DNA of 57,376 bases from a virus (Duplodnaviria; Caudoviricetes), in IMG/VR virus record IMGVR_UViG_3300023197_000044, positions 1-57,376 of that record; one strand, written 5' to 3'. Under the pieces are notes generated by a model. That model was not told the origin of the DNA. It ran no database searches and worked only from the letters and a program-made list of their open reading frames with translations. This document shows positions 9,509 through 29,035 of the stretch, piece by piece. Every line of letters begins with the position of its first letter. Positions within the stretch are counted from its first letter, which is position 1. Both the position numbers and the translations under genes were made by a program.

Positions 9509-11359
9509 TTACGCTTCCGCCTTCTCTCTACGGAGGAGCGCCTTCTTCGCGTCGATCAGGGCACTTGCTTCCCCCTTGCTGATGTTCGAGGGGTAGTCGA
9601 CGCCCAGGCGGTCGAGGAAACCCTTCTGACCGCTCGTTGCCTGCCCGGAGTGCCACCGAGCCGTGTGCTTCATGATTTTCCTGATGTCGCCGTGCTCGTC
9701 CGTGATGCGCTTGTCGATCTTTCCAATCGCATCTTCGAGGCTGCCATAGGTCACGTCGGGGTTGTAGGTCGCCCCCTTGATCTTCTTTCGGGAACCGTCC
9801 TGCTCGACGTACTGCGTTGGGTAGTGGAACGACACTTCCCAATCCCCGAGCATGTCCTGCTCGACGCGGACATCAAATTGCCGGTCAGCCGGGACACTTA
9901 GCTGGTAAACACCCTGCCCCATGTCCATCCATCGGTACTCGCTGACATCCTTGATGTCGTCGCTGGGGTTCGCCACGTCGAAGACGGTGATCTCGTCGGC
10001 CTCGACCTCCATCTCTTCGATGCTCGCGGCGTCCCTGATCTCCTCCTCTTTAAACGGGTTCTCCTCGACGATCTCCTCGACTTTCGGCACTACGTCCTGC
10101 ACCATGCGGGCCGGGGTCTCGTTGTCGAGCGAGGTGGAGTCGAAGTCCGACGACATGCCGAACAGGTCCGGCGCACGAACGATGTCGTGGTCCCCGATCA
10201 GGTCTGCGAAGTCGATCAGCGTCATGTACGGCTTATCCGACTCCTCAATTGCCTGGAGCCGTTCCGGCTTCGTGTCCAGGTTCCCAATCGAGGGCGGCAT
10301 TGTGCGCGTGCCTCGACCGAGCATCTGGATGTAGAGCGGGGTCGACTGCGTGGGGCGGGCCATCAAGATTGACTGCGTGCCGGGGGCGTCGAAGCCCTCG
10401 GTCAGCACCATACAGTTCGTGACGACCTGAATCGTGCCGTCCTTGTACTGCTCAATGATCTTGTCGCGCTCGCCCTTCGGCGTCTTGCCATCGACTGCGA
10501 CCGCCGCAACGCCACTCTCACGGAACTGCTCTGCGAGGTCATGGGCGTGGGCTACGTCGACGCAAAATGCAATCGACGAATCCCCGCAGTATTGGCGCCA
10601 TCCCTCGACGATCACCTGATTCCTTTCCGGCGTGTTTGTCGCGTTGGAAAGCTCACCGACCGCAAAGTCCCCAGCCCGACTCGTCACCTCGTCAATGTGC
10701 TGGTTCGTGTTGACCTGGAGGGCGCGAACGTCGGCGAGGTAGCCGTTTTCGATGCCCCACTGTAGGTCGTAGTTAGACGCGATCTGCCCGTAGAAGTAGT
10801 TCAGGGCGATCCCGTCGTTGCGATTCGGCGTTGCCGTCACCCCCACGCTAAGGCGCGGCTGGTCGTTGGGCAACAGGTCGTCGTATGCGTCGTCGGTGCC
10901 GAGGCCGAGAGGGGAGAGGATGTTGTCGTAGGTGCCACCGGGCTTGACGTGGTGGGCTTCGTCAGTCACCACAATTCCGATCTGGCGGTGCTTCATTAGC
11001 CGGTTGAGGCGGCTCCGGGTCCGCCCGAGCGTCTGCCTGCTCGTGACAATGATGTCGGCGGTCGGATCGGCGCTGTACTCGGCCTTCTCCAGGTCAACCC
11101 GAAGGCTGGGGCATACCCACTGGAGGGAGTCTTGCGCCTGATAGGCAAGCTCGGTCGTGTGAACGACCACGACCATTCCGTACCGAACAAGCTCCGGGAA
11201 GAAGGCAGGGAGGTGGGCGAACGTGATCGTCTTACCCAGCCCCGTCGCCTGTGAGACGAGTTGGCGGTTCACACCGCTGTCATACCCCCTACGGATGCTC
11301 TCCAGCGTCTCTCGCTGGTAGTCCCGCAGGACTATATCTGGATTCGTGGTTACTTGCAT
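9509..11359 (-). CDS. Superfamily 2 DExH helicase (IRC3/RadD-like)
   Basis: LRDYQ, ATGLGKT, DEAHH, TATP, TEGFD, QMLGRGTR motifs. Confidence 0.95.
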   Translation of the reverse strand: MQVTTNPDIVLRDYQRETLESIRRGYDSGVNRQLVSQATGLGKTITFAHLPAFFPELVRYGMVVVVHTTELAYQAQDSLQWVCPSLRVDLEKAEYSADPTADIIVTSRQTLGRTRSRLNRLMKHRQIGIVVTDEAHHVKPGGTYDNILSPLGLGTDDAYDDLLPNDQPRLSVGVTATPNRNDGIALNYFYGQIASNYDLQWGIENGYLADVRALQVNTNQHIDEVTSRAGDFAVGELSNATNTPERNQVIVEGWRQYCGDSSIAFCVDVAHAHDLAEQFRESGVAAVAVDGKTPKGERDKIIEQYKDGTIQVVTNCMVLTEGFDAPGTQSILMARPTQSTPLYIQMLGRGTRTMPPSIGNLDTKPERLQAIEESDKPYMTLIDFADLIGDHDIVRAPDLFGMSSDFDSTSLDNETPARMVQDVVPKVEEIVEENPFKEEEIRDAASIEEMEVEADEITVFDVANPSDDIKDVSEYRWMDMGQGVYQLSVPADRQFDVRVEQDMLGDWEVSFHYPTQYVEQDGSRKKIKGATYNPDVTYGSLEDAIGKIDKRITDEHGDIRKIMKHTARWHSGQATSGQKGFLDRLGVDYPSNISKGEASALIDAKKALLRREKAEA

Positions 11360-11429
11360 GGGCGCATGGTTGTCTTATTCGCCTTTCAGTGAAGCGCCGG
11401 GTAAGGCGCTGTACCCCTTACAGTTGCGG

Positions 11430-11526
11430 TGGAAAGGGCGGGACTCGAACCCGCATTAGCCGTTTCGGAGGCTGCTTTCTCCAGCCGATCTTCGAGCCTT
11501 CACAATAGGCGACCTCCGACCTCTCC
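11430..11526 (-). ncRNA. Atypical tRNA-like element (expanded D region, non-canonical anticodon arm)
   Basis: Acceptor GGAGAGG/CCTTTCC, T arm GCGGG-TTCGAGT-CCCGC, extra hairpins between them. Confidence 0.6.
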
Positions 11527-11597
11527 AGGTGCCCCTCTTTTCATCCACGTGGGGGCTTACGTGCCCAGGAATTTGCGCCCCTGGTCGGCGCGTAAAA

Positions 11598-11668
11598 TGC
11601 AGTCGGGAAGGGACTCGAACCCCTCGGCCTCCGTCTTCGCGGTGTTCTGCCTCTGAACTACCGACCGC
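11598..11668 (-). ncRNA. Degenerate tRNA with shortened anticodon arm
   Basis: Acceptor GCGGTCG/CGACTGC, D arm GTTC-AGAGGCA-GAAC, T loop TTCGAGT; anticodon arm reduced to CCG-CGAAGA-CGG. Confidence 0.65.
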
Positions 11669-11716
11669 CCACAGGGGCAGGGATTCGGCCCTGCTCTTGT
11701 GAGGCTAACTTGGCGC

Positions 11717-12349
11717 TTAGAACGGGAAGCCGTCGTCGGCCTGCTCGGCGGGGGCGCCGTCTCCCGCCGGGGCGCCGTCCCCCTCGTATTCCGGGAATCC
11801 GTTCTCCTCGGCAGGTGCCTCGGCCTGTCCTGGCGTCAAGTTCGGGACCTCCGACTTGTTTTTCGGTTCGCTGTAGCCGACGATCTCCGCGCTGATGCGG
11901 CCCTTGCCGCCGCCGTCGACGTGCTCCCGGTAGTCCTCCTCCTCTACGTCGTTCTTCCAGCCGCGCTCGGTCTCAATCGAGTATTCGTGACGAACCTCGA
12001 CACCGAAGCGCATGGGCGTCTCACGGACGAACTGCTCGGCGAACTCGTCCCACGAGCTAACGTCCTGCGACCACTCGTAGCCATCCGGCAACTCGTGGGT
12101 GCGGGTGTTCGAGCACATGGAGAACAGCCGGTCCTCGCCGATTCCGTACTCGGTGCCCATCGTGAGGTATTCCGTCATTTCCAGGCGGCAATCCGGGCCG
12201 TTGTCAATGACGAGCGTGGCGACGAGCATGTCGTTGCCGTTCTTGCTCACGTCGGCCTTCATGTTCTTGATGCTGACATCCTGGTGCCCCTCACTCGGTA
12301 CGCTGGAGGAGCCAAATTCGGATGCGTCGTTCATGTCGGGAAAATTCAT
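11717..12349 (-). CDS. Putative ssDNA-binding protein (DUF669-like)
   Basis: Beta-rich N-terminus with SKNGNDML; acidic tail ending DDGFPF; near the Sak4-like ATPase. Confidence 0.72.
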   Translation of the reverse strand: MNFPDMNDASEFGSSSVPSEGHQDVSIKNMKADVSKNGNDMLVATLVIDNGPDCRLEMTEYLTMGTEYGIGEDRLFSMCSNTRTHELPDGYEWSQDVSSWDEFAEQFVRETPMRFGVEVRHEYSIETERGWKNDVEEEDYREHVDGGGKGRISAEIVGYSEPKNKSEVPNLTPGQAEAPAEENGFPEYEGDGAPAGDGAPAEQADDGFPF

Positions 12350-12418
12350 GGTTGTGGTTGTCTTTCGGTTGATAGATTATGAACGCCTCGTGCGGGCGGA
12401 AACCCGCTTAGGATGATC

Positions 12419-12835
12419 CTAATTGGCGAGGCGGGCTTTCATGCTGGCTCTTCGGTTCTTCAAGATGGAGAACCAGTCTTCTTCGTCGATCTGGGCATCA
12501 CCGAGCCAGTATTCCCACTTCTCGTCGTCAACCTCGATCATCAAGTTGTCCGGTGAGAAGTCAAGCTCGATAGTGCGCACCAGGAGCGGTTCCCATCCCG
12601 GTGTGTGGAGCCACCTACCGAACGTGGCGCCAGGGGAGGACTTTAGGGTCGAAACCCATCCGTCCCCGCAAAGCCCGCATTGAAACGTCTTCTGCTCGCG
12701 GGTCTCGACGCCGTTGCTCTTTTCGTTCATGCCTTGCATCACCCGCAGGGCCTTTGCTCCGCAGCACTTGCATCGTGCGTCGGAGGTAGCGGAAAACGGA
12801 TTGGAGGGGGAGCTATTCATCGTCACCCCCGCCAT
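12419..12835 (-). CDS. Hypothetical zinc-finger protein
   Basis: CKCC...CGLC. Confidence 0.6.
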   Translation of the reverse strand: MAGVTMNSSPSNPFSATSDARCKCCGAKALRVMQGMNEKSNGVETREQKTFQCGLCGDGWVSTLKSSPGATFGRWLHTPGWEPLLVRTIELDFSPDNLMIEVDDEKWEYWLGDAQIDEEDWFSILKNRRASMKARLAN

Positions 12836-13751
12836 TTAGGCGATTCCCGAGTTCCTGAATCCGGGCCTTTACGCCCTCCAGTGTGTCGGGTACGTGGCGC
12901 TTCGCTTCAAGGCCCTTGTTCTCGTAGTGCTTATATGCGGCCTTGAGGCGCTTGAGCGCCTGTCGCATCGGTCGTGCGTCCTTCTCGACCGGCTGAGGCT
13001 CCGTGACCGTGCTAAACTTTGGGTCGTAGATCAACCGTCCGTGGTTGACGCCCTTCGTCACCGCCCCGACGCGCTTCTGCCCCAGGGCAGGGCGGCTAAT
13101 CCAGATGATGCTTTCGGCGAGGTACGGCCCGGTCTTCCAGAGGTCGATCACTTTCTCGCCCGTTTTCGAGTCGTCAATGTACTCGTCCTTGATTCGGGAG
13201 CACATCACGACGTTGTGCTGCTTGCGTATCTCGCCAATCCAGCCGTCGAGAATCGGGTAAAGCTGCCCATACATCATCGGCGGGATCGGGTCGTCGCCGC
13301 GCTTCATTTGGTAGTTAAAGCTCGCGGCGGCAATGCCCAACAGGTCCGAGGCTGAGTCGATAACGACCGTCCCCCGCTCTGCGTCGGCAAGGACCGACAC
13401 TGCCTGATTCATCTTCTTGTCGACGCCGAACCAGGGTGCGAACCAAATGTCTTCGGCGTCCCCATCGGCCTTCGGCTCCAGTGCAAGGTGCCGGATGTCC
13501 TTCTCCGGGAACGACTTGACGAGGGTTGCGACCTCATGACCGGCTTCGGTGCCAATCACGTGGAGTGGGCCAGGGGCGGTAGCCGCGAAGTGGGTCTTGC
13601 CGCTTCCCTCTGGCCCAATCGCAATCACCACCTCGTTCGGGTGCTCAACCGGCTCAAAGAGCGCGTTGTACCTGGAACTCTGACCCGGCGCCGCGTCAGC
13701 CTCGGGCGGTTCGGGCTGGGACATAACATCCTCTGCTGTTGATGTGCTCAT
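12813..13751 (-). CDS. AAA_24 / Sak4-like ATPase (recombination)
   Basis: Walker A GPEGSGKT, Walker B VVIDS; start refined to ATG 13751 by the leader motif. Confidence 0.8.
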   Translation of the reverse strand: MSTSTAEDVMSQPEPPEADAAPGQSSRYNALFEPVEHPNEVVIAIGPEGSGKTHFAATAPGPLHVIGTEAGHEVATLVKSFPEKDIRHLALEPKADGDAEDIWFAPWFGVDKKMNQAVSVLADAERGTVVIDSASDLLGIAAASFNYQMKRGDDPIPPMMYGQLYPILDGWIGEIRKQHNVVMCSRIKDEYIDDSKTGEKVIDLWKTGPYLAESIIWISRPALGQKRVGAVTKGVNHGRLIYDPKFSTVTEPQPVEKDARPMRQALKRLKAAYKHYENKGLEAKRHVPDTLEGVKARIQELGNRLNGGGDDE

Positions 13752-13806
13752 GGTTGTCCTCCGTGATTTGGGAGTGGGGCAGGGGTAACTGCCCACGGGC
13801 TGCGGA

Positions 13807-14079
13807 TTATTGGAGAAGGATCTGCTCAAGTTCGGCAAGCTCCTTCGTGAGCGCTTCCCTCGCAATCTTCGCGTTACTGATTGCCGCCTGGACCTTACCC
13901 GGCAAGTTGTTGGGTAAATCCCTGTCGTAGGGCGAGCTATTGGCGAACTTGTTGACCTCTGCGATCTCCTCAATTGCGTCGTCGAGGCGACCGATCAGGG
14001 CTCGGTAAAGCCCGAGTCGGTAGTTGGCTCCCTGCCGCATGAAGTCTTCGGCGCTATTAGCTTTGACCGTGGTAGCCAT
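13807..14079 (-). CDS. Hypothetical protein
   Basis: Preceded by hairpin 14118-14133 and a motif variant. Confidence 0.7.
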   Translation of the reverse strand: MATTVKANSAEDFMRQGANYRLGLYRALIGRLDDAIEEIAEVNKFANSSPYDRDLPNNLPGKVQAAISNAKIAREALTKELAELEQILLQ

Positions 14080-14146
14080 GGGATTGGTGTCTTTTGGTGT
14101 GAAGGAGTTGGGTACTCGCGCCGGGTAGGGCGCTTGCGCTTATCCG

Positions 14147-14220
14147 TGCCCCCGGCAGGAGTCGAACCTACGGCACGCGGCTTAGGAAGCCACCGCTCTG
14201 TCCGTCTGAGCTACAGGGGC
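14147..14220 (-). tRNA. tRNA-Arg(CCT), phage-encoded
   Basis: Cloverleaf with anticodon arm GTGGC-TTCCTAA-GCCGC and T loop TTCGACT. Confidence 0.93.
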
Positions 14221-14230
14221 GAATCTCCTC

Positions 14231-14539
14231 CTACTCGCTGGGTAGGTTTTCGCTTGCGTAGATACGGCGGCGCTCTTGAATGCCCAGGTTTTTCAGGCGG
14301 TAGGTGCGCTCGGTGGAGAAGCCCAGGGCTCGGGCCATGCGGAGGAGGGTGCCGATGCGCTCGTGACCGTCGGCCTTCATGGCGGCGTAACAGGCGTTCC
14401 GATGGATGCCTTTGCCACGGTCGGGGTCGGGGTTGTCGCATCGACGTGCGACAGCACAGGGGTTGAGATCGCGCCGCTCCATCTCCTCAGAGACGAGCGT
14501 GCGCAGTTGGGGCGCAGTCAGGTTCATGGGGACGTGCAT
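14231..14539 (-). CDS. Small putative HTH regulator (first gene of the replication operon)
   Basis: XRE-like pattern LRTLVSEEMERRDLNPCAVARR...IGTLLRMARALG. Confidence 0.55.
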   Translation of the reverse strand: MHVPMNLTAPQLRTLVSEEMERRDLNPCAVARRCDNPDPDRGKGIHRNACYAAMKADGHERIGTLLRMARALGFSTERTYRLKNLGIQERRRIYASENLPSE

Positions 14540-14578
14540 GGTTGTTTCGATGTAAGCGGGCGGTAACCCGCGAATGAA

Positions 14579-14615
14579 CTACAATTAATGTAGAGCCTAT
14601 CGTTAGCACAAGCAA
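14579..14615 (-). promoter_or_regulatory. Sigma70-like promoter with an overlapping inverted repeat
   Basis: Minus strand TTGCTT (14615-14610), 17 nt, TACATT (14592-14587); inverted repeat CTACA-ATTAA-TGTAG at 14579-14593. Confidence 0.65.
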
Positions 14616-14823
14616 GGGCATTATCTTAATTCACTCTGCCCCTTTGGGTCTTCATGACCCCTTCGAGTACGTCCTAAACGTGACCCCGCTCAGAGCCCCA
14701 ATAGGAGCTTTCCGATAGGTGTGGTAGAGCAGGGATATATAGTACATAGTACAGTGTATCAGTGAGTGGGTCGTGGGCGGGGGCGTGATCGTGTGTGGGT
14801 GCACACACGCGGGGCGTGTGTGC

Positions 14824-15102
14824 CTATGGGCCTGTGTACGTGGGCGTGATTGCCCGTGCTTGCATGGGCTCGGCCCGCAACTCGTGCTCGACACGTGCCT
14901 GGAACAGAACCTCCAGTCGCTTGAAGAGCTTCGTTGACACGCTCCACCAGGGGTGGCTATTGCATGTCGGCTGTTCAGCCTCCCAGGTGACTTCGTTGCT
15001 GGAGTAGCTGTAAGTTCGCCGGTACACCCTGCCCCCCATGCTCATTTTTGAGCGCTGGGAGGGGGCATTGATCTCGGTAATCTTGGGGTTTTCTTCTGGC
15101 AT
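14824..15102 (-). CDS. Hypothetical protein
   Basis: ORF co-oriented with the early genes. Confidence 0.5.
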   Translation of the reverse strand: MPEENPKITEINAPSQRSKMSMGGRVYRRTYSYSSNEVTWEAEQPTCNSHPWWSVSTKLFKRLEVLFQARVEHELRAEPMQARAITPTYTGP

Positions 15103-15182
15103 GGGCTGAGTCTGTTATCATGTCCGAGGGCTTACGAGGCTGGCCCAGGTGGGGCGATCTCCCCGCCCCCGAGCCAGGGTAC

Positions 15183-15446
15183 CTAATCGAACGCAATCGT
15201 CTTACCGGCGAACGTCAGGCGCTCTACGGTGTCGGCGGTGATCGTGCGGAATCCGCCCTTCTGCACGTCCCACACGAGCTTCATACCACGCTCTTCCGGG
15301 CTCCAGTTGGGAGGCTGGTCGTTGGGGTGCGTGCGAGCGTTCATTTCACGAGTCTCGCCGTCTTTCTTGGTGAAGGTGATGCCGAAGAACTTGCCTTCGG
15401 TGCCGTTGATTGCGTCGAGTACGCGCTGCGACTTCGTGTTAGTCAT
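15183..15446 (-). CDS. Small SH3/Sm-like beta-barrel protein (WYL_2/DUF2693-like)
   Basis: FFGITFTKKDGETREMNA...LVWDVQKGGFRTI pattern; start ATG 15446 follows the hairpin and motif. Confidence 0.72.
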   Translation of the reverse strand: MTNTKSQRVLDAINGTEGKFFGITFTKKDGETREMNARTHPNDQPPNWSPEERGMKLVWDVQKGGFRTITADTVERLTFAGKTIAFD

Positions 15447-15586
15447 GGTTGATCTTTTGTGGAATGGTTGTGGAGTAGGGGCCGGTAAGCCCCATCGGAA
15501 AGCAAGGCCGAAGGCCCTGCGTAGACCCCAGGGGCGGGCTTGAACCGCTCCCATCGGAAAGCTCCCGATCTATCCATTTGGGGTGC

Positions 15587-15910
15587 TTAGTTGGCGCGAG
15601 AGATCACAATGATGCCCTTGAATTTCTCGGCGTAGTAGGAGCGCCATTCGCCCCCGATCTCGGCCCGGAATACTGCCAGATTACTCTCCAGGTCGCCTCG
15701 GTTCATAGCGCTCATGTAGACCATTTCCCACAGTGCCCGGTCCTTGTCCGCCAGGGTGGGGGAGTGGGCGTCGAGTGTCCGCATGACGGGGCCGGTAGCG
15801 TACACCGGCATGTCGTAGATGCGGGTAAGGTCGATGCTGGGGTCATTGGGCTCCAGCTTGACGATCTGGTGCCCTTGATAGGTGTCCGGGGTTGCGGTCT
15901 GTGTCGGCAT
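15587..15910 (-). CDS. Hypothetical protein
   Basis: AAAACAACCATG at start. Confidence 0.7.
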   Translation of the reverse strand: MPTQTATPDTYQGHQIVKLEPNDPSIDLTRIYDMPVYATGPVMRTLDAHSPTLADKDRALWEMVYMSAMNRGDLESNLAVFRAEIGGEWRSYYAEKFKGIIVISRAN

Positions 15911-16097
15911 GGTTGTTTTGCTGTATGAGTGCGTAGTTGGCGGTGTCGTGAAGCGCCCGGTTGATCCTGTTCCTGCACTGCGAGAGGTCCACAGTATCTC
16001 CCTGCTCCTCTCCGTGTTCGTACAGGGCCTCCAGGGCCTCGTGTAGGCTCAGGATTGCCTGCTCAAGGTGGTCCATGTTGCTGCCCCCGGTAAGGGG

Positions 16098-16463
16098 TTA
16101 GGTGAGTGATTCGTTGAGTTCTTCGTCCCTCGTCATGCGCTCGAAGAGGCGCGGGTGAATCTTGCGAGCGGCTTTCTCTGGGATCTCGGCCCCCAGGCAT
16201 TCACGGGCGGCCCCGCACCAACTCACGCCGCTGTTGTCGTGGAAGAACGTCGCGCCGTAGCCTTCGAACTGCCCGTAGCACGGATAGCCTTGGGCGGGGT
16301 GCCGGAAGGCGGCCTCGGGCTGTTTGTTGACGCCGTATTCCGGCGTGTTGTATCCAAACATACCGTAGTTCGTCACGGCTGCGAATACGTTCAGGGAGTC
16401 CGTTTCCTCCTCGTGGTCGATGAAGAATACCCACTCTCGCGGGGTGTCTTTCGCATCTGGCAT
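16098..16463 (-). CDS. Hypothetical protein
   Basis: AAAGACAACCATG at start. Confidence 0.75.
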   Translation of the reverse strand: MPDAKDTPREWVFFIDHEEETDSLNVFAAVTNYGMFGYNTPEYGVNKQPEAAFRHPAQGYPCYGQFEGYGATFFHDNSGVSWCGAARECLGAEIPEKAARKIHPRLFERMTRDEELNESLT

Positions 16464-16499
16464 GGTTGTCTTTCCTGTTGAGTGAGTGTTGAATGATTG

Positions 16500-16784
16500 T
16501 TAGCTGCCCGGTTCGTAGGGCGCCAGGCAGACGAGCGCATACCACCCGGTCACTTTCTTGATGTCCGATTCTACCCAGGCAGAGGCGCCTTCAATCCGGC
16601 GTATGTAGCCGGTGCGCTTCCGTGTTCGAGTCGCCTTGTGGGGGATCTCCACCACGTCGCCCACGCTCACGTCGGGCGGTTCCGGCTGTGGAATCGGCTC
16701 GGGCCATTCGGGCTCGGGCGCCGGTTCAGGTTCCGCCTCGGGGGCCGGGTCCTTTGCTGTAGGGTTTCCGAAGATGTCGGGCAT
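16500..16784 (-). CDS. Hypothetical protein (Pro/Glu-rich N-terminus, possible SH3/KOW-like C-terminus)
   Basis: GACAACCATG at start with hairpin 16813-16828. Confidence 0.7.
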   Translation of the reverse strand: MPDIFGNPTAKDPAPEAEPEPAPEPEWPEPIPQPEPPDVSVGDVVEIPHKATRTRKRTGYIRRIEGASAWVESDIKKVTGWYALVCLAPYEPGS

Positions 16785-16804
16785 GGTTGTCGGGGGATTT
16801 AGGG

Positions 16805-17041
16805 TTAGCGACGCGCCCGGTAGAGCGCTTCGTCTTTGGCTTCTTCGACTGCGTGATCGGCAAGGGCCTCCTCTTCGTCCACGAATACCTCTTCGGGCAT
16901 GGGGAGCCCTTCGGACTCGGACTTGATAGATTCAAAGCCAACTGAGTAGCTTCGGTGATCGGGGGCGTCGGACACGACGGTCGCTTCGACCGTGTAGTGC
17001 GTTTCGTCCTCGCCAGCGATGTAGAGGAAAGAGACGTGCAT
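16805..17041 (-). CDS. Small acidic hypothetical protein
   Basis: AGACAACCATG at start with hairpin 17068-17081. Confidence 0.72.
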   Translation of the reverse strand: MHVSFLYIAGEDETHYTVEATVVSDAPDHRSYSVGFESIKSESEGLPMPEEVFVDEEEALADHAVEEAKDEALYRARR

Positions 17042-17134
17042 GGTTGTCTGGTATTGCAGGAAACGATGCCCCGGTAAGGGCGCGAATTGAACCCTGCCCC
17101 GGATTTGAACCAGGGAGGAGGCTCCATGCCAGGG

Positions 17135-17569
17135 TTAGGCGGGGACCTTTTCGGTCTCCATTGCGAGCGTGCCGTTCGGGCGGAACCGGACCTTACCGTA
17201 TCCCGGCGTCCACGTCTCTGCCCGCTCGTACGGCGTGCCGCTTTCCCACGAGCCGTTGATGTACCACGCATAATCCTTCTGCGTAATTCGGGCGTGGGGG
17301 CTGTACTTGTTGATTCGATTCTTCGTCGTGACCGTCTGCCAGCCGCCCGTTCGGATCTCGGAGGAGCCGTTCGGGTGTAGGATCACGACGCACGTGTTGT
17401 GGAGCTTGATGCCGAACGAGCTGCCACGCTTGACGAGGCGCGTATTATTTTCCAGCCGTACGCCTTCGTACTTGCCGGACTGGTAGCAGATGCGCTCTTC
17501 GTACTCGGCCTTCGCCTCTTCGTACGTGGTGCCACGATACTCGCCGTTGATGGGGTTCTTGGAAGCCAT
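17135..17569 (-). CDS. Hypothetical phage protein
   Basis: AAAGACAACCATG at start with hairpin 17593-17608. Confidence 0.75.
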   Translation of the reverse strand: MASKNPINGEYRGTTYEEAKAEYEERICYQSGKYEGVRLENNTRLVKRGSSFGIKLHNTCVVILHPNGSSEIRTGGWQTVTTKNRINKYSPHARITQKDYAWYINGSWESGTPYERAETWTPGYGKVRFRPNGTLAMETEKVPA

Positions 17570-17679
17570 GGTTGTCTTTCTGTCTGAATTGGGCGCCCGG
17601 TAAGGCGCTTTTGCGGATTCGAGCCCCGCCCGGTAACGATCCGGGCCGATGCTCCATGCCGGGGCTTATCAGTGTAGGG

Positions 17680-18234
17680 TTAGCGGCACAGGTCCGCTAT
17701 CGCTTCGCGGGCTTGCTTGACTGCGTGGTGAACCAAATCGGAAGCGTAGCCGCCCCCTTGGCAAAACTCTTCGTACGAGTTGTAAATGCAGCCGCCCAAC
17801 CTATCGGAGCCCAGGACGGCGCCGCTTGCCTTGTGGATCACTTCGACGACAGCGACGAAGATTTGCGCGTCGTCACTGAGACCGACGTAGGAGCGGATAA
17901 TTTCCGCCATTTCGCGCCGGTCCTCGTTGATCCACTCGATCACTTGCTCTTCGCCGTACTCGTCAACCTCTCGCTGCCCGTAGCGCTGAGATTCGCGGAT
18001 CACGAGCCCGCCACCGTCCCGGATGAATGCCTTCGTGAGGAGCCAGGATAGGTCAAGGTGCCGCTCAGTCTTCGCCGTGAAGCGCACGATGAACCGATCC
18101 GTTTCGATCTCCCGCATTACCTCTGATTCGTCGAGGTGGTTGTAGTAGGCCGTCTCCATGTCGTTGTCGATTCGAATGTTGTGATCCCTCGCAATGCAGA
18201 CGAGCGGGGACTGAATTTCGGCTGTGCTTTCCAT
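17680..18234 (-). CDS. Hypothetical phage protein
   Basis: AGACAACCATG at start with hairpin 18259-18272. Confidence 0.75.
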   Translation of the reverse strand: MESTAEIQSPLVCIARDHNIRIDNDMETAYYNHLDESEVMREIETDRFIVRFTAKTERHLDLSWLLTKAFIRDGGGLVIRESQRYGQREVDEYGEEQVIEWINEDRREMAEIIRSYVGLSDDAQIFVAVVEVIHKASGAVLGSDRLGGCIYNSYEEFCQGGGYASDLVHHAVKQAREAIADLCR

Positions 18235-18298
18235 GGTTGTCTGTGTCGGTTAGTGAGTGCCCCGGTAAGGGCGGATCGGTGCGGTCGGGGATTTCGGC

Positions 18299-18769
18299 CT
18301 ACCCTTCCAGGTAGAGGAACGATTCCACTTCGCTGATGTCGTCGCGGACGGCGAACACGTCGCCGCTTCGCTCCATGAAGAATACTTCGGTCCCGAATCC
18401 TTCGTCTTCGACCTTGAAGCCCATGAGCACATCGTCCCAGGCGTCCCAATAGTGCTCGTTAATCTCCTCGGTGGGCTGATTCCAGTCCGTGCAAGGCCCT
18501 TCCAGGAGGATGTCGCGGTCTTCGTCGGGCAGTGCGTACTTCTCGGCGAACTGCTGGGGGACGTAGCGCCCTGCCGCCCCGTTCACCGTACAGTAGAGCA
18601 CGTCTTCGGTGGGTCGGAGCTTGGGGATGTGATCCATGTCGACCTCCTCGTGGAAGTGCATGAACGCCTTCCACAGTGTCTCCGTCACTTCACCCTGTGG
18701 GGGCGTCGGGTCGTGCCCCAATTGGATGCAGTAGTTCTCGAAACGGTGCCAAATTCTGCTGTAGTTCAT
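18299..18769 (-). CDS. Acidic hypothetical phage protein
   Basis: GAAGACAACC upstream with hairpin 18797-18810. Confidence 0.75.
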   Translation of the reverse strand: MNYSRIWHRFENYCIQLGHDPTPPQGEVTETLWKAFMHFHEEVDMDHIPKLRPTEDVLYCTVNGAAGRYVPQQFAEKYALPDEDRDILLEGPCTDWNQPTEEINEHYWDAWDDVLMGFKVEDEGFGTEVFFMERSGDVFAVRDDISEVESFLYLEG

Positions 18770-18876
18770 GGCGGTTGGTTGTCTTCGTTGAGATGTGCCC
18801 CGGTAAGGGCTCGGATGTTGGCGCCGGGTAGGGAGTCGAACCCTACCACGTGCCCGGTGTCGGCGCGTCGTGCGGT

Positions 18877-19464
18877 TTACAGTGCGTGCTCGTCGAATAC
18901 GTGGACGGTCTCGAATGCCACGTCGCAGAATCGCATGTCCCCGCTGATCCGCACGTCACGAGCGAACGCCTCGTAGTCGAAGTAATACCGGAGATTTTCC
19001 GGCATGTCGTTCAGCAATCCTGCGGATTCGACGTATTCCATTGCCCAATACTCGGCGCTCTTGAAAGTGCCCCGGTAAGCCCGTGCGAATCCATCTTCCC
19101 ATTCTTCGGGATCGTAGCCGATGTCTTCGGCTATCTCGACGAATTTCTCTGCCGACGACGAATCATCCGTGTAGCTCAGGAGCTCGACGTAGCAGAGCAT
19201 AGCGCGGAGCCCGTCACGGCCCGGATACTCGGAATACAGTGCCCGTGGGAAGCCTTCGAAGTCGTGGACTGCCCATTCTTCAACGGGTCCCGTCATTCCG
19301 TCGAGCAAGTCCCGATCCCACTCGTCCAACAGGCACGAGATAGCATTCATCAACTCGTCAACGTCCTCGTATTCGGGAAGGTAGAGCCAACGGCCTCGGA
19401 GGTGTCCGGCATTGTATGCTGCAAGATCGGCGACGTAGATTTTCGGCGTCGTGTGGTGTCGCAT
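18877..19464 (-). CDS. ardA: Antirestriction protein ArdA
   Basis: PKIYVADLAAYNAGHLRGRWL, EEWAVHDFE and YYFDYEAFARD; start refined to ATG 19464. Confidence 0.93.
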   Translation of the reverse strand: MRHHTTPKIYVADLAAYNAGHLRGRWLYLPEYEDVDELMNAISCLLDEWDRDLLDGMTGPVEEWAVHDFEGFPRALYSEYPGRDGLRAMLCYVELLSYTDDSSSAEKFVEIAEDIGYDPEEWEDGFARAYRGTFKSAEYWAMEYVESAGLLNDMPENLRYYFDYEAFARDVRISGDMRFCDVAFETVHVFDEHAL

Positions 19465-19553
19465 GGTTGTCTTCGCTCTCGTGTTAGAATGAGCCCCGGT
19501 AAGGGCGTGAGTGTTGGCGTAGGGGGCGGGGAACCGCCCCGTGCCCGTCCAGG

Positions 19554-19886
19554 CTACGCGGCGCCGTAGTGCTCGTCTTCGTATGCTCGGAATCGCTTGC
19601 GCACCGGCTCGACTGAATCCGGTTCGATGCGTCGGAGTCCGCCCTTCGCGGCCCACGATTCTACCTCATCACACGAGCCCCAAGAATCGGCGGGAATGTA
19701 GTTGAACATGAAGGCCCAAAGCGCCGGAATGCCTTTGACGTTGTTGCTGTCCGCATTGCGGAACGTGCGGCTCAGGTCGTTCTTGAGTGCCGACGTGAGG
19801 AATCCACCCGGCATTTCGCCGTCGATTACGTAATCCTCCAGGGATTCGAGCGTGTAGAACGGGATAACAGGCTTGTTCGATAGCAT
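19554..19886 (-). CDS. Hypothetical phage protein
   Basis: PGGFLTSALKNDL...PADSWGS; hairpin 19916-19931 upstream. Confidence 0.72.
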   Translation of the reverse strand: MLSNKPVIPFYTLESLEDYVIDGEMPGGFLTSALKNDLSRTFRNADSNNVKGIPALWAFMFNYIPADSWGSCDEVESWAAKGGLRRIEPDSVEPVRKRFRAYEDEHYGAA

Positions 19887-19934
19887 GGTTTTTCGATTCG
19901 ATTCGTGGGGGGAAGGGCGCCGGTAAGCGCCTCG

Positions 19935-20018
19935 TTAGATGCTCAGGGATGCGCGGAGAAAGTGCCCGATGTCCGTGTACCCTGCTGCCTCTGCGTAGCT
20001 GTCCAGATCGTCTTTCAT
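19935..20018 (-). CDS. 27-aa peptide MKDDLDSYAEAAGYTDIGHFLRASLSI (not in the ORF track)
   Basis: Has both the hairpin (20042-20055) and AAAACAACCATG; read by hand. Confidence 0.55.
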   Translation of the reverse strand: MKDDLDSYAEAAGYTDIGHFLRASLSI

Positions 20019-20085
20019 GGTTGTTTTCGGTCGGTTGTGGTGCGCCGGTAAGCGCTTCGTTGAGTTGGTGTCAGCATGGTTAGGC

Positions 20086-20328
20086 TTATATCATCTGCCC
20101 AAGGTGCGACCTTTTCAGGGGGACATTAACGTGCCCCTCAATTACAGCAAGGGCATGGGCGGTATCCTCAACATCCTCCAGTTGAAGGGTGTCCCTGTAT
20201 TCGTGTGCTTCGGAGAAACGGCATACACCTTTGACTGCGGCTCGCTCGGGATCTTGCGCCGTTATTTTGGTGGATTGTATGCCGTTTTGGAACGGCGTCT
20301 CAGAATGTACGATCACAGTGTATTTCAT
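20086..20328 (-). CDS. Hypothetical protein
   Basis: Co-oriented ORF; partial motif ACACCATG. Confidence 0.6.
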   Translation of the reverse strand: MKYTVIVHSETPFQNGIQSTKITAQDPERAAVKGVCRFSEAHEYRDTLQLEDVEDTAHALAVIEGHVNVPLKRSHLGQMI

Positions 20329-20402
20329 GGTGTTAGATTGGATGAATGAGGAAGCTCTAAAGTCTTAATGCCTTGCTTATATCGGGGTTCGGCTCTGTCT
20401 GA

Positions 20403-20744
20403 TTAGCGGTAAATTGCTTGCTTGCCCCATCGGGCGAATTTGTCGGCGTCTACGGCGTTCTTCCATCTCGTGTACGGTTCCGGCGCTTCTCCGCGCTTTG
20501 TGTATTTCCGGTACTGTATCATTCCGTCACGGACCCGGATTTCAGCCTTGCGCCCCGTCCACCAATCGGACGGGTCGAAGATGCCGATGATAGCGCCCAG
20601 TCCTTTCATGCGCTTAAAGTGCGTGTTCTGGTAGTGCGCCACGGTCGTGGTGCCGAAATTTGGCCCGAATCCCATCCGTGCGCTCCAGGATAGGAGGCTG
20701 CGCAGTTCGTCGTTGTCGTTCGTGTCCGGTGGAAGCGTTGGCAT
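20403..20744 (-). CDS. Hypothetical protein
   Basis: AAAGACAACCATG defines the start at 20744; hairpin 20764-20775. Confidence 0.7.
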   Translation of the reverse strand: MPTLPPDTNDNDELRSLLSWSARMGFGPNFGTTTVAHYQNTHFKRMKGLGAIIGIFDPSDWWTGRKAEIRVRDGMIQYRKYTKRGEAPEPYTRWKNAVDADKFARWGKQAIYR

Positions 20745-20796
20745 GGTTGTCTTTAGGTTAGGTGCGTGGTAACGCGGTTCGGTGCCCCTACTCGTG

Positions 20797-21408
20797 TTAG
20801 CAGTTGTTCGCAATCAGGGCGTGAAGTGCCGATTTTTTCAGCATCTCGGCGTGCTCGTCGTCGTTGATCTGATTCGATGGGCTCCAGTATTCCATTACTT
20901 CCAGATCGTCGCCGATCTGTAGGAAAAAATCCCGGTAGGGCGGTCGGTCGTTGTGCCGGTTGTTTGCCCACAGGTGCATCCATCCGTCACGCCCGAATTT
21001 CAGTTCGGTGTGGAAGTGCTCAATGTCTTCGATGTCGAACGTGGACACAATCGTCGTCGAACCGTCGATGTCGAACGGTTCACTGGCATTGCCAAGACGG
21101 ATGAAAAACTGCCCCTGCCCCTCCGCTTCGCGGGCTTCGTCCTCGGCAATCTGTAGCTCGTCGAGCACACCAAAATCGGCGAGATAATTCCACGCCGCCT
21201 GTTCGTGCCCCGCAATGACTGCGACGGTGCGGAAATACGACGATTCGAACAGATACATCGTCGACGATCCGTAGGAGTCCGCCACGAGGCTCGTAAGCGT
21301 GTCGTCGCCTTCGATAACCGGCACATCCTCCGCTCGGCGTTCGTGCTTGTGCGGCATACTGTGCGCCGTTACAGTGATTCGCGGGCAGTTCTGCGTTGTG
21401 TCTTCCAT
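20797..21408 (-). CDS. Acidic hypothetical phage protein
   Basis: AAAAGACAACCATG at start. Confidence 0.75.
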   Translation of the reverse strand: MEDTTQNCPRITVTAHSMPHKHERRAEDVPVIEGDDTLTSLVADSYGSSTMYLFESSYFRTVAVIAGHEQAAWNYLADFGVLDELQIAEDEAREAEGQGQFFIRLGNASEPFDIDGSTTIVSTFDIEDIEHFHTELKFGRDGWMHLWANNRHNDRPPYRDFFLQIGDDLEVMEYWSPSNQINDDEHAEMLKKSALHALIANNC

Positions 21409-22265
21409 GGTTGTCTTTTGTTGATAAGTAGGGGAATGCGCCTTCGGTGCGATAGCACGTTCGGCGCCGTGCTTAGGTACTTATTCAGCGTCCAAAATCG
21501 TGGACACTGTATCGTTGGAACGGGCGGAACTGCCCCGCCTCCGTTACATCCGGCTAAAGCCGGTTCGCGGTTGTCTATTCCGTTCCAAATCCACTGAGGG
21601 TAACGCTGGGGTGAACCGCCTTTGGTGCCCGTAGAGGGCGGTTGGGGCGGTCAATTTTCCACAGATTCAGCGCTCTGTCTTCTTTCACGATTCCTGTATT
21701 TTCACGGCCCAGGAGTCGGCCCGGCACAATCCGGCGCCTACATGTTCGGCACCGGCACGCGCCCCACTTGACAGAGTGATATAAGGGGCGGTTATGTGCG
21801 CTTCTATGTGTAGGGAAGGGCTTGCGACGGCAGAGCATTAGGGGTGTCCCCCATCCAGGTCCACGAACACGCCATTTCTGACGCTTCCATTAGGAGTGGA
21901 TTATGCTTCGCAGTCCCTACACGCAATATGTAAAGAACAGGTGAGTCAAGGTGCGCTTCAGCGTACAGGTACAGGGATCGCATCCACTGTGCCCGCTTCA
22001 GAGTGCGGACCTTGCGCATGTGCTGCCACACGTTCACCGTGGGATGAGCCTTGTTCTCCGCTTCAACGTACCCACTAAAGAGCGTTCACCGTTGCGGCAC
22101 GGAGACTTGTGCCCACGTACAGCGCTTGTTCTCGGCGCCGCACATGCCCCGCCTATGGTCGGGCGGAATCACACTACAATTTCAAGGAACGGTAAGGTGC
22201 TTGACTTGGGGGCACCGGGCGGGATTGAACCGCCCGACAGTGCGCCAGCGTGCCCGGTCGCGTTC

Positions 22266-24426: not shown

Positions 24427-24469
24427 CAGCCCGCAGTGGCGCTTACCGGCGTTCAGGGCAAAGACAACC

Positions 24470-29034: not shown

Positions 29035-29035
29035 T

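What the first reader, a model, noticed from the sequence alone, without database searches (positions are those of the whole stretch)
11393..22258. tRNA punctuation: tRNA minihelices and degenerate tRNAs between early genes, mostly just upstream of a regulon leader
Seen on the minus strand: AGCCCCG-14nt-CCCGG-ATCGTTA-CCGGG-CGGGGCT (17622-17666) and AACCCTG-14nt-CCCTGG-TTCAAAT-CCGGGG-CAGGGTT (17090-17136). Both are a 7-bp acceptor stem plus T arm with no D or anticodon arm, and share the linker GCATGGAGC. Similar elements lie at 18820-18861 (TTCGACT loop), 22214-22258 (TTCAATC; shares ACCGGGCACG with the previous one), 15525-15584 (D-armless) and 19517-19559. The usual order is stop codon, tRNA-like element, YUACCG hairpin, motif, ATG; tRNA-Arg and the 11430-11526 element occupy the same position. 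Established: RNase P and RNase Z recognise acceptor/T-arm minihelices. Inference: these are processing signals that cut the early polycistron into units, or decoys for tRNA-targeting defences.
Basis: partly seen in the sequence, partly recalled or inferred. Interest (0 to 1): 0.8.

Follow-up and report, generated by a model that had tools for sequence, protein, structure and literature searches.

The report
tRNA-like elements punctuating phage early genes
A prophage of a salt-loving bacterium carries nine tRNA-derived folded elements, only one a working tRNA, between its early genes; they probably mark where host tRNA-trimming enzymes cut the long early transcript, a trick known from mitochondria but not described for phages.

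Summary
The window is a Salinibacteraceae prophage (att repeats, integrase). Its minus-strand early operon has 22 gene junctions, and 8 of them hold 9 tRNA-derived elements:
- one real tRNA-Arg;
- a 72-nt tRNA-like RNA with a shortened anticodon arm;
- a 100-nt acceptor/T-arm RNA with a branched insert;
- a D-armless form;
- five 43-47-nt acceptor/T-arm minihelices.

The T-arm motif GGTTCRANYCC occurs 8 times, all on the minus strand, against 0.66 expected. Seven of these lie in those junctions.

The elements are more than decaying relics:
- The helices stay paired through two-sided changes.
- The short-arm tRNA-like RNA recurs after the SSB gene of Salinibacter phage SRUTV-1 and in a prophage of a host-family genome. 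Ten of 20 pairs covary.
- One minihelix is an island of conservation in diverged metagenomic relatives.

Processing by RNase P and RNase Z is the most likely mechanism, but I could not test it. No RNA data were available, fold energies are unremarkable, and two helices include the upstream stop codon.

I found no evidence for the decoy idea.

The closest analogue is the plant mitochondrial t-element. I rate this a new variant of a known kind, interest about 0.6.

The parts
22210..22255 (-). Minihelix Ea: 6-bp acceptor-like stem, 13-nt linker, 7-bp T stem, 7-nt T loop matching GGTTCRANYCC. It starts 10 nt after the stop of the 44-aa first early ORF. The bases after the helix can be read as discriminator + CCA.
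19517..19559 (-). Minihelix Ef: 6-bp stem that contains the TAG stop of g6, 13-nt linker, 7-bp stem, 4-nt loop (no T-loop consensus). Its T-stem sequence is close to that of Ea. It lies 52 nt before the ArdA ATG.
   Evidence: (16.5 bits, rank 2 with model R2)
18821..18866 (-). Minihelix Eb: 6-bp stem, 13-nt linker, 7-bp T stem, canonical T loop. It starts 10 nt after the ArdA stop and ends 51 nt before the next ATG. An alternative register (7-bp acceptor with 6 of 7 paired, plus 5-bp T stem) also exists.
17622..17666 (-). Minihelix Ed: 7-bp acceptor, 14-nt linker sharing GCATGGAGC with Ec, 5-bp stem, 7-nt loop without T-loop consensus. It lies 52 nt before the g10 ATG.
   Evidence: its 3' part matches a diverged relative (joint 17390->17619)
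17090..17136 (-). Minihelix Ec: 7-bp acceptor whose first two bases are the last two of the g10 TAA stop, 14-nt linker, 6-bp T stem with one G.U pair, canonical T loop. It lies 48 nt before the g11 ATG.
   Evidence: 62-nt conserved island 17080-17141 in relatives
15525..15584 (-). Ee: tRNA-like without a D stem. It has a 6-bp acceptor, a 17-nt hairpin in the anticodon-arm position, and a T arm matching GGTTCRANYCC. It starts 2 nt after the g15 stop.
   Evidence: (T arm 16 of 17 identical to Ea)
14147..14220 (-). Bona fide tRNA-Arg (anticodon CCT). It occupies the same slot as the other elements: 10 nt after the g18 stop, followed by a hairpin with a CTACCCGG loop, 67 nt before the next ATG.
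   Evidence: (88-89% identical to host-family tRNAs)
11598..11669 (-). T67: cloverleaf with intact acceptor, D and T arms, but an anticodon arm reduced to 3 bp + 6 nt (CCGCRAAGACGG). It follows the SSB-like gene g22. Homologs exist in Salinibacter phage SRUTV-1 and in a prophage of a host-family genome.
11427..11526 (-). T100: 7-bp acceptor and canonical T arm enclosing a roughly 58-nt branched insert. It lies 67 nt before the leader ATG of the helicase. Weak, sub-threshold likeness to the tRNA-like domains of tmRNA and YrlA.
   Evidence: (tmRNA 15.7 bits, YrlA 23.8 bits, both far below gathering)
19492..19512 (-). Leader hairpin (CTTACCGG loop) after Ef. It is one of three near-identical 21-nt copies.
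   Evidence: (family D13)
18796..18816 (-). Leader hairpin after Eb (family D13).
17067..17087 (-). Leader hairpin after Ec (family D13).
17577..17615 (-). Leader (hairpin with CTTACCGG loop, plus spacer) after Ed and before g10.
   Evidence: (D19)
15472..15493 (-). Leader hairpin after Ee.
   Evidence: (D12)

Best explanation
The nine elements are tRNA genes and tRNA-derived RNA modules that are transcribed as part of the sense strand of the early/middle operon of a temperate Salinibacteraceae phage. Selection keeps their 'top half', the coaxial acceptor/T-arm helix of 12-13 bp, usually with a canonical T loop. The D and anticodon parts have been shortened, replaced or deleted.

Most likely mechanism (inferred, not shown): the host's tRNA end-processing enzymes recognise this top half. 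RNase P cuts at the 5' edge of the helix, and RNase Z cuts after the base that follows it. The polycistronic transcript is thereby divided at 8 of its 22 junctions. Each downstream mRNA then starts about 50 nt before its ATG, with the conserved CTTACCGG-loop hairpin a few bases from the new 5' end, where it could act as a protective 5' stem-loop. Small tRNA-like RNAs are released at the same time.

Shown: the elements are real, tRNA-derived, strand-specific, intergenic, structurally maintained and in part conserved between phage lineages.

Inferred: co-transcription, cleavage, and the role of the hairpin.
For: **Motif and position**
- The T-arm motif occurs 8 times on one strand against 0.66 expected. 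Full T arms number 7 against about 1.3 expected.
- Seven of the 8 motif hits lie in the 2774 nt of intergenic sequence of the operon. None lies in its roughly 8.1 kb of coding sequence.
- The real tRNA-Arg sits in the same slot as the degenerate forms.
- Spacing is fixed: minihelix to ATG is 52, 51, 52 and 48 nt. For tRNA-Arg and T100 it is 67 nt each.

**Pairing is maintained**
- Ec and Ed share a 10 of 10 linker. They differ at 2 of 7 acceptor pairs, both changed on both sides, with none broken. This is read from the segments.
- G.U pairs occur on the sense strand only (Ec, Ee, T67, T100).

**Comparison between lineages**
- T67 has a homolog directly after the SSB gene of Salinibacter phage SRUTV-1, with the same truncated arm. 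A model built from the SRUTV-1 copy alone scores the window copy at 47.8 bits, E about 1e-10, with no gap in the mini-arm.
- A third member lies at the head of the early operon of a prophage in a host-family genome.
- Over the three members, 96.6% of cells pair and 10 of 20 pairs change on both sides. None of 500 shuffles reached this, and slid controls gave 0-2.

**Metagenomic relatives**
- In relatives from three runs of two studies, 17080-17141 (which holds Ec) and 17619-17646 (the 3' part of Ed) match at 80% or more. Most of the g10 sequence between and around them does not (joints).

**Host and operon context**
- RNase Z is over the cut-off in 4 of 5 host-family genomes.
- The two real tRNAs in the window lack an encoded CCA, which fits an RNase Z / CCA-adding pathway.
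- Neither terminator-like sites (16 against 13.2 expected) nor sigma-70-like sites (3 against 3.8) exceed chance in the operon. This is compatible with long transcripts.

**Precedent**
- Plant mitochondrial t-elements were found with the same motif and are tied to mRNA ends made by RNase P/Z (PMC1920247, passages).
- RNase P also cuts phage M3 RNA, P1/P7 C4 RNA and operon mRNAs (PMC11143913, passages).
Against: - No RNA evidence of any kind is available.
- Fold energies are not unusual: z from -0.6 to -2.0 in all eight non-tRNA elements folded.
- The bare architecture is common: 20 instances in the window.
- Ed and Ef lack a T-loop consensus.
- Helices are mostly 13 bp, not the canonical 12.
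- Only Ea is followed by something readable as CCA.
- The Ec helix starts inside the g10 stop codon, and the Ef helix contains the last codon and the stop of g6. A 5' cut there would leave mRNAs without a stop codon.
- 14 of 22 junctions have no element, so punctuation is at best partial.
- A single-sequence model of Eb does not recover the other minihelices above noise: Ef 16.5 bits at E 0.27, Ea 12.0, Ed 11.3, and Ec not among the 27 listed. The minihelices share architecture rather than demonstrable sequence ancestry.
- The covariation count rests on three sequences in an alignment fitted to the model. Any tRNA-derived sequences would inherit part of that covariation.
- Host tRNAs score up to 54 bits with R1. 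Only the shared mini-arm and the shared genomic position argue for homology.
- The host's promoter type is not covered by the scan.
Confidence: 0.45

Rival explanations
1. Relics. The phage once carried more tRNA genes in these intergenic slots. What remains are pseudogenes at different stages of decay, with no present function.
For: - The elements form a graded series, from an intact tRNA-Arg down to hairpins that have lost the T-loop consensus.
- Degenerate, unannotated tRNAs do occur in phage tRNA clusters. One example is in Microbacterium phage BAjuniper, where the acceptor strands no longer pair.
- The minihelices are not linked by sequence with model R2.
- Fold energies are ordinary.
Against: - Decay should break stems. 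Here all 64 helix pairs of the five minihelices are standard pairs, although that scan selected for pairing.
- Paralogs differ by two-sided changes.
- T67 is conserved with its odd mini-arm in a phage whose helicase is only about 34% identical.
- Ec is better conserved than the neighbouring coding sequence in relatives.
- Spacing to the ATG is fixed.
Confidence: 0.2
2. The released small tRNA-like RNAs are the point, not the cuts. They act as mimics that bind or titrate a tRNA-binding host factor, such as a defence nuclease or transferase, a modification enzyme, EF-Tu or a synthetase. Alternatively they serve as a regulatory small RNA.
For: - T67 keeps the D and T arms, and so the tRNA elbow, and is conserved across lineages.
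- In the G026 prophage the homolog stands alone between two hairpins at the head of the early operon.
- The elements lie in the early region next to an ArdA anti-restriction gene.
- Phage tRNAs that counter tRNA-cleaving defences are on record. I saw this only in the abstract excerpts printed by the searches: PMC12409363 and PMC11455837.
Against: - None of the eight degenerate elements has a normal anticodon loop, so they cannot mimic targets of anticodon nucleases.
- No partner gene was identified. The early proteins have no informative family.
- The idea does not explain the fixed position before leaders.
Confidence: 0.15
3. The elements are structural modules that are not cleaved. They might be stable hairpins that stop 3' exonucleases and protect upstream cistrons, in the manner of REP elements. 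Or they might be conserved boundary sequences that promote cassette exchange between phages, with the tRNA ancestry incidental.
For: - Several elements start at or within the stop codon of the upstream gene. That suits a 3' protective structure better than a cut.
- Relatives are mosaics whose break points fall at the leader repeats. One relative lacks the g8 cassette, with the joint running from 18267 to 18816 between two copies of the leader (D20).
- The three leader hairpins after Ec, Eb and Ef are 86-90% identical over 21 nt (D13).
Against: - Retention of the specific T-loop sequence in 6 of 8 degenerate elements is not needed for a mere hairpin or for a recombination linker.
- Two-sided pair changes point to an RNA fold, not to DNA identity.
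- No U tract follows the helices.
Confidence: 0.15
4. The elements are chance hairpins in G+C-rich intergenic DNA.
For: MFE z-scores are weak. The generic architecture is found 20 times in the window.
Against: - Motif enrichment: none of 100 shuffles reached the observed count, and all hits are on one strand.
- T-arm enrichment.
- Shared linkers.
- A homolog in another phage genus.
Confidence: 0.03

Closest known systems
Plant mitochondrial t-elements (Forner et al. 2007, PMC1920247; passages read)
   Same: Both are non-decoding tRNA-like structures with the GGTTCRANYCC T-arm motif and an acceptor-like stem. Both lie in the sense strand next to protein genes. Some t-elements give mRNA 3' ends inside the reading frame, which parallels Ec and Ef overlapping stop codons.
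   Different: t-elements sit in an organelle genome and are few and scattered. Their ends have been mapped and RNase P/Z cleavage is supported by experiment. The elements here are in a phage operon, are coupled to a repeated leader module at fixed spacing, are mostly reduced to a bare minihelix, and have no mapped ends.
tRNA punctuation of animal mitochondrial transcripts (recalled, not read here)
   Same: tRNAs between cistrons of a polycistronic transcript serve as cut marks for RNase P and RNase Z. Stop codons can be left incomplete at the cut.
   Different: In mitochondria the marks are functional tRNAs at nearly every junction. Here only 1 of 9 is a functional tRNA, and only 8 of 22 junctions are marked.
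Phage RNase P substrates: P1/P7 C4 antisense RNA, phage M3 RNA, T4 tRNA-cluster RNAs (listed in PMC11143913; passages read)
   Same: These are phage-encoded RNAs, not decoding tRNAs, that are matured by host RNase P through acceptor/T-arm-like features.
   Different: Those are single regulatory or stable RNAs. They are not a series of elements between early protein genes.
RNase III sites between phage T7 early genes (recalled, not read here)
   Same: Structured intercistronic elements cut an early polycistronic mRNA into units and leave a hairpin at the mRNA ends.
   Different: The enzyme and the structure differ: long double-stranded hairpins, not tRNA mimics.
tRNA-like domains of tmRNA and YrlA (Rfam RF00023, RF02553)
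   Same: T100 has an acceptor and T arm around a large insert, as in these tRNA-like domains. Both families give weak hits there.
   Different: The scores of 15.7 and 23.8 bits are far below the gathering scores of 47 and 69. There is no tag reading frame and no Ro-binding stem.
Promoter-early stem-loop (PeSL) cassettes of T4-type phages (recalled, not read here)
   Same: A repeated regulatory module precedes each small early ORF and serves as a break point for cassette shuffling, as the leader repeats seem to do here.
   Different: PeSLs are promoter plus stem-loop and have no tRNA-like part.

Membership tests
Functional (decoding) tRNA gene | Called by a tRNA finder, with a cloverleaf including a 5-bp anticodon stem and a 7-nt loop | tested here: not met
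   ARAGORN calls only tRNA-Arg and tRNA-Phe, so 0 of the 8 other elements. T67 reaches Rfam tRNA exactly at the gathering score (29.0 bits), but 5 positions of its anticodon arm are missing.
Functional (decoding) tRNA gene | Acceptor stem plus T arm with a canonical T loop | tested here: met
   Met for Ea, Eb, Ec, Ee, T67 and T100. Not met for Ed and Ef, whose loops lack the consensus.
t-elements / tRNA punctuation signals | GGTTCRANYCC T-arm motif outside canonical tRNAs, with an acceptor-like stem | tested here: met
   There are 8 motif hits; 6 lie in non-tRNA intergenic elements that also have stems.
t-elements / tRNA punctuation signals | Lies in the sense strand of a longer precursor transcript next to coding regions | tested here: inconclusive
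   Strand and position fit: all elements are on the coding strand and start between -6 and +13 nt of a stop codon in 7 of 9 cases. No excess of terminator-like sites was found. Transcription itself was not observed.
t-elements / tRNA punctuation signals | mRNA and small-RNA ends coincide with the element's ends; cleavage by RNase P/Z | not testable with these tools
   No RNA data were available for this.
RNase P minihelix substrate | Coaxial acceptor/T helix of about 12 bp capped by a T loop | tested here: met
   The helices are 12 bp (Ed) or 13 bp (Ea, Eb, Ec, Ef). A T loop is present in 3 of the 5.
RNase P minihelix substrate | 3' RCCA that pairs with RNase P RNA (bacterial type A) | tested here: not met
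   Only Ea can be read as discriminator + CCA. The window's real tRNAs also lack CCA, so the feature may not apply in this host.
tmRNA / YrlA | Score at or above the Rfam gathering threshold | tested here: not met
   T100 scores 15.7 bits against tmRNA (gathering 47) and 23.8 bits against YrlA (gathering 69).
Intrinsic terminator | G+C-rich hairpin followed by a U tract | tested here: not met
   None of the 16 terminator-like sites in 11000-23000 coincides with an element, and the count is at chance (13.2 expected). The sequences after the helices have no T run.
attP/attB tRNA fragment | Only one part of a tRNA, duplicated at the prophage ends or matching a host tRNA | tested here: not met
   The true att repeat is the 51-nt 5' part of tRNA-Phe at 77-127 and 57270-57320. 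The elements have both acceptor strands. No minihelix match to the 58 host-family genomes appears among the listed BLAST hits; 160 hits were not listed.

The most novel reading that the evidence does not exclude
A temperate phage of Salinibacteraceae uses mitochondria-style tRNA punctuation. A set of minimised tRNA mimics (43-100 nt) is coupled to a repeated leader hairpin and directs host RNase P and RNase Z to cut its early operon into separately stabilised mRNAs. Where the cut falls inside a stop codon (Ec, Ef), it may also time the shut-off of the upstream gene.

At the same time, one of the mimics belongs to a previously undescribed family of tRNA-like small RNAs. The family has a 3-bp mini anticodon arm, is conserved in the early/replication modules of several Salinibacteraceae phages and prophages, and has a function of its own.
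Probability: 0.3. Interest if true: 0.75.

Novelty: new variant of a known kind. Interest (0 to 1): 0.6.

Why it matters
If the elements are cut by RNase P and RNase Z, this would be a bacterial-virus counterpart of organellar tRNA punctuation. It would show how tRNA genes can be whittled down to the minimal part the processing enzymes need, and then reused as mRNA processing signals.

It would give an experimentally tractable system (one prophage, one host family) for two questions:
- How far can a tRNA be reduced and still be recognised in vivo?
- How do phages of Bacteroidota-like hosts, which lack Shine-Dalgarno-led translation, organise early gene expression?

Separately, the short-arm tRNA-like RNA recurs after the SSB gene of SRUTV-1 and in a host-family prophage. 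It is a candidate new small-RNA family that current annotation misses: it is unannotated in the three Kairosalinivirus phages (five database records). It is also not mentioned in the passages I retrieved from the paper that describes them.

Tried and rejected
**Close relatives for a covariance test of the minihelices were not obtainable**
- Megablast of the region against phages found nothing.
- Protein-anchored scans of IMG/VR with the helicase, the Sak4-like protein and g10 gave only distant loci: 1, 0 and 4.
- The metagenome scan gave 1 distant locus.
- The helicase has no match at E <= 1e-30 in 58 Salinibacteraceae genomes.
- A leader-motif pattern scan of IMG/VR gave 66 loci with one match each, which I judge to be chance level.

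**Sequencing runs**
- The run search listed no RNA holder, so expression could not be examined.
- Contigs of four DNA runs were laid. The table of base differences was cut (746 rows not shown), so variants inside the helices could not be read. Only the joints and pieces were usable.

**Models and folding**
- A single-sequence covariance model of Eb (R2) did not separate the other minihelices from noise. I therefore did not use it on other genomes and did not build a third model.
- MAFFT could not align the minihelices structurally.
- Thermodynamic folding gave no significant z-scores.

**Rejected readings and side checks**
- The weak tRNA hit at 57257-57318 is not a degenerate early-region tRNA. 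It is the att-site copy of tRNA-Phe.
- The motif hit at 7535-7545 is coding sequence without stems.
- The SRUTV-1 motif hits at 3346 and 28956 are likewise coding sequence without stems.
- The T arm in Salinibacter phage 4_22 is a 3'-half tRNA fragment with no 5' acceptor strand. It is probably an attP site.
- g22 and the SRUTV-1 SSB show no BLASTP similarity beyond the acidic C-terminal tip. The statement that both follow an SSB gene therefore rests on that tip motif and on the record's annotation.
- The early proteins gave no RNA-related family.
- Literature searches found no paper describing tRNA-like minihelices between phage genes. This covers only the held library.

- The look-up of encoding contigs was said to be closed, and I did not call it.
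- I did not ask for supplementary files. The supplements of PMC5776456 might list RNA genes of the Salinibacter phages.

Full report
**What the window is.** It is a virus record of 57,376 bases and an integrated temperate phage.
- A perfect 51-nt direct repeat lies at 77-127 and 57270-57320 (family D8). It is the 5' part of a tRNA-Phe gene whose complete copy is at 52-126.
- A tyrosine integrase gene lies next to it at 376-1626.
- A 50-base stretch of this tRNA-Phe occurs exactly in 8 contigs, all from Salinivenus, Salinibacter or related MAGs.
- The helicase at 9509-11359 is most similar to helicases of Salinibacter phages, at 32-34% identity.

The host is therefore a member of the Salinibacteraceae. 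Genes are preceded not by a Shine-Dalgarno sequence but by a conserved ACAACCATG start context. Often there is also a small hairpin whose loop reads CTTACCGG and whose stem varies. ACAACCATG occurs in 25 copies over both strands.

**The early operon.** I defined 23 minus-strand genes between 22400 and 9509. Each is an open frame starting at a leader ATG.
- The only ones with an informative family are ArdA (18877-19464), a Sak4-like ATPase, an SSB-like protein (g22, which ends in the acidic SSB tip) and the helicase.
- Terminator-like sites (16 against 13.2 expected) and sigma-70-like sites (3 against 3.8 expected) are at chance level. The host's own promoter type is not covered by that scan.

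**Checking the observation.**
- A scan for a helix of at least 12 bp in two parts, with a linker of 11-16 nt on the 5' side and a loop of 4-7 nt, returns five minus-strand minihelices. They are at 22255-22210 (Ea), 19559-19517 (Ef), 18866-18821 (Eb), 17666-17622 (Ed) and 17136-17090 (Ec).
- Their layouts are 6/13/7 bp (Ea, Eb, Ef), 7/14/6 (Ec) and 7/14/5 (Ed), using the split for Ea and the split for Ed. That gives 13 or 12 stacked pairs.
- 15584-15525 (Ee) folds as acceptor, hairpin and T arm without a D stem. 11526-11427 (T100) has a 7-bp acceptor and a canonical T arm around a branched insert.
Rfam scores it as tRNA at exactly the gathering score, 29.0 bits. Its anticodon arm is only 3 bp with a 6-nt loop.
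- ARAGORN calls none of these eight.

**Is it more than chance?** Three measures say no.
- Fold energies have z-scores from -0.6 to -2.0.
- The bare architecture occurs 7 times on the plus strand and 13 times on the minus strand.
- A model built from Eb alone does not lift the other minihelices out of noise.

The tRNA-specific signal says yes.
- The T-arm motif GGTTCRANYCC is the one Forner et al. used to find plant mitochondrial t-elements. It occurs 8 times, all on the minus strand, against 0.66 expected. None of 100 shuffles reached 8.
- Complete T arms number 7 on the minus strand and 1 on the plus strand, against 1.3-1.4 per strand in shuffles.
- Seven of the 8 motif hits fall in the 2774 nt of intergenic sequence of the operon. 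The eighth, at 7535-7545, is coding sequence without stems.
- By my own arithmetic, the background rate of the generic architecture predicts about 0.4 instances in those intergenic bases. Five minihelices are there.

**Position.** Eight of the 22 junctions hold the 9 elements, counting the real tRNA-Arg.
- Seven of the 9 elements begin between -6 and +13 nt of the upstream stop codon. T67 and T100 share one long junction and begin 49 and 190 nt after it.
- Ec starts with the last two bases of the g10 TAA. The 5' strand of Ef contains the last codon and the TAG of g6.
- Seven of 9 are followed by a leader hairpin.
- The distance from the end of the minihelix to the next ATG is 52, 51, 52 and 48 nt for Ef, Eb, Ed and Ec. 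It is 67 nt for both tRNA-Arg and T100.
- The hairpins after Ec, Eb and Ef are 86-90% identical over 21 nt (D13).

The element and the leader therefore behave as one upstream module of the following gene.

**Relics or maintained structures?** Several results point to maintenance.
- Ec and Ed share a 10-nt linker. Their acceptor stems differ at two of seven pairs, each changed on both sides, with none broken (segments printed).
- G.U pairs occur on the sense strand in Ec, Ee, T67 and T100. On the other strand they would be mismatches, which argues for an RNA fold of the sense transcript.
- In contigs of diverged relatives from three runs of two studies, the pieces that still match at 80% or more include 17080-17141, which holds Ec, and 17619-17646, the 3' part of Ed. 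Most of g10 between and around them does not match (joints 16662->17080, 17141->17291, 17390->17619).

**The strongest comparative result.**
- Salinibacter phage SRUTV-1 belongs to a different genus, and its helicase is about 34% identical. It has an unannotated 69-nt tRNA-like element directly after its SSB gene. The element carries the same shortened arm, CCGCRAAGACGG.
- It is identical in M31CR41-2, M31CR41-3 and one IMG/VR contig.
- A covariance model built from that copy alone scores the window's T67 at 47.8 bits, with no gap in the mini-arm. The window's real tRNAs score 36.7 and 29.6 bits.
- A third member, 68 nt and not called by ARAGORN, lies in a prophage of a host-family genome. It sits between a CI-like repressor region and an early operon with a RecE-like nuclease and a DnaB helicase.
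- Over the three members, 96.6% of cells pair and 10 of 20 pairs change on both sides. None of 500 shuffles reached these values, and slid controls gave 0-2.

**Caveats on that result.**
- It rests on three sequences in an alignment fitted to the model.
- tRNA-derived sequences inherit some covariation from their parent tRNAs.
- Host tRNA-Gly and tRNA-Thr score up to 54 bits with the same model. The shared mini-arm and the shared genomic position carry the argument, not the score.

**A contrast.** An unannotated degenerate tRNA in the tRNA cluster of Microbacterium phage BAjuniper has acceptor strands that no longer pair. That is what a plain relic looks like.

**Mechanism.** It is established that RNase P and RNase Z recognise the acceptor/T-arm half of tRNA, and that RNase P cuts several phage and operon RNAs (passages in PMC11143913). 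In plant mitochondria, t-elements are tied to mRNA ends, some of them inside reading frames (passages in PMC1920247).
- RNase Z is present over the curated cut-off in 4 of 5 host-family genomes searched.
- The two real tRNAs in the window lack an encoded CCA.
- I therefore think it most likely (about 0.45) that the elements are cut out of the early transcript. That would start each downstream mRNA about 50 nt before its ATG, with the leader hairpin near the new 5' end.

**Against this, or unresolved.**
- No RNA data were available.
- 14 of 22 junctions have no element.
- Ed and Ef have no T-loop consensus.
- Helices are mostly 13 bp, not 12.
- Only Ea is followed by something readable as CCA.
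- A 5' cut at Ec or Ef would remove all or part of the upstream stop codon.

**Rivals.** These are functionless relics (0.2), released tRNA mimics as the real product (0.15), uncleaved stabilisers or recombination boundary modules (0.15) and chance (0.03). The boundary-module idea has some support. One relative lacks the g8 cassette, with the joint falling between two leader copies (D20). But it does not explain why the T-loop sequence is retained.

**Comparison with what is known.**
- The elements fail the tests for decoding tRNAs, tmRNA, YrlA, intrinsic terminators and att fragments.
- They meet the sequence and structure criteria used to define t-elements. The defining functional criterion, ends that coincide with the element, could not be tested.
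- My literature searches found no description of such elements between phage genes.
- The paper describing the Salinibacter phages mentions only a tRNA-Asp for the SRUTV-1 group. The word tmRNA does not occur in its main text (supplements not seen).

I class the finding as a new variant of a known kind, with interest about 0.6.

Noticed in passing
window 77-127 and 57270-57320; 376-1626(-): A perfect 51-nt direct repeat, equal to the 5' part of tRNA-Phe, lies at both ends, with a tyrosine integrase next to the complete tRNA. The record is an integrated prophage with a few dozen bases of host flank. Unusually, the duplicated part is the 5' part of the tRNA, not the 3' part.
   Followed up: partly
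window, both strands, e.g. 17577-17615(-), 24442-24470(+), 53909-53939(+): A regulon-like leader precedes many genes of both early and late operons. It is a small hairpin with a conserved CTTACCGG loop and a covarying stem, a spacer of 5-35 nt, then ACAACCATG (25 copies of ACAACCATG). The variable spacing argues against a two-part promoter. Its function is unknown.
   Followed up: partly
window 21409-22265(-): An 857-nt stretch without a convincing gene lies between the first small early ORF (plus Ea) and g2. It has lower G+C and short repeated words. It could be a non-coding RNA or an origin of replication.
   Followed up: no
window 28000-34200(+): This is a low-G+C island (0.38-0.52, against about 0.60 elsewhere) holding four large ORFs. 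One of them has an SbcC-like PHROG match. It looks like foreign cargo inside the prophage.
   Followed up: partly
window 11359-11367(-): The leader ATG before the helicase opens a 5-codon mini-ORF. The helicase's own ATG lies 8 nt downstream in another frame.
   Followed up: no
window 22450-22530(-): A G-rich run of GGAAAC-type short repeats lies just upstream of the leader of the first early ORF, next to an A+T-rich stretch at 22700-22790. This is the likely early promoter/operator region between the divergent operons.
   Followed up: no
L095 (Salinibacter phage SRUTV-1, NC_042353.1) 10024-10399(+): An unannotated phage-encoded tmRNA scores 80 bits against a gathering score of 47. ARAGORN gives a tag peptide. 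It overlaps a CDS annotated as a hypothetical protein (9965-10183). The word tmRNA does not occur in the main text of the paper describing the phage.
   Followed up: partly
L115 (host-family genome G026, contig 29) 9029-9096(+): A prophage (terminase, CI-like repressor, RecE-like nuclease, DnaB) carries a 68-nt tRNA-like RNA with a 3-bp mini anticodon arm at the head of its early operon. The element is flanked by two hairpins.
   Followed up: partly
window 18267-18816 (run X6): A relative lacks the whole g8 cassette. The joint lies between two copies of the leader repeat, which suggests that cassettes are gained and lost by recombination between leaders.
   Followed up: no
window 17640-17660 and 17110-17130(-) versus the start regions of g10 and g11: The linker word shared by Ed and Ec contains CATGG, which is complementary to the CCATG of the conserved start context about 50-70 nt downstream. 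For g11 the complementarity is 6 nt. It might be a start-site sequestering pairing, or it might be coincidence.
   Followed up: no
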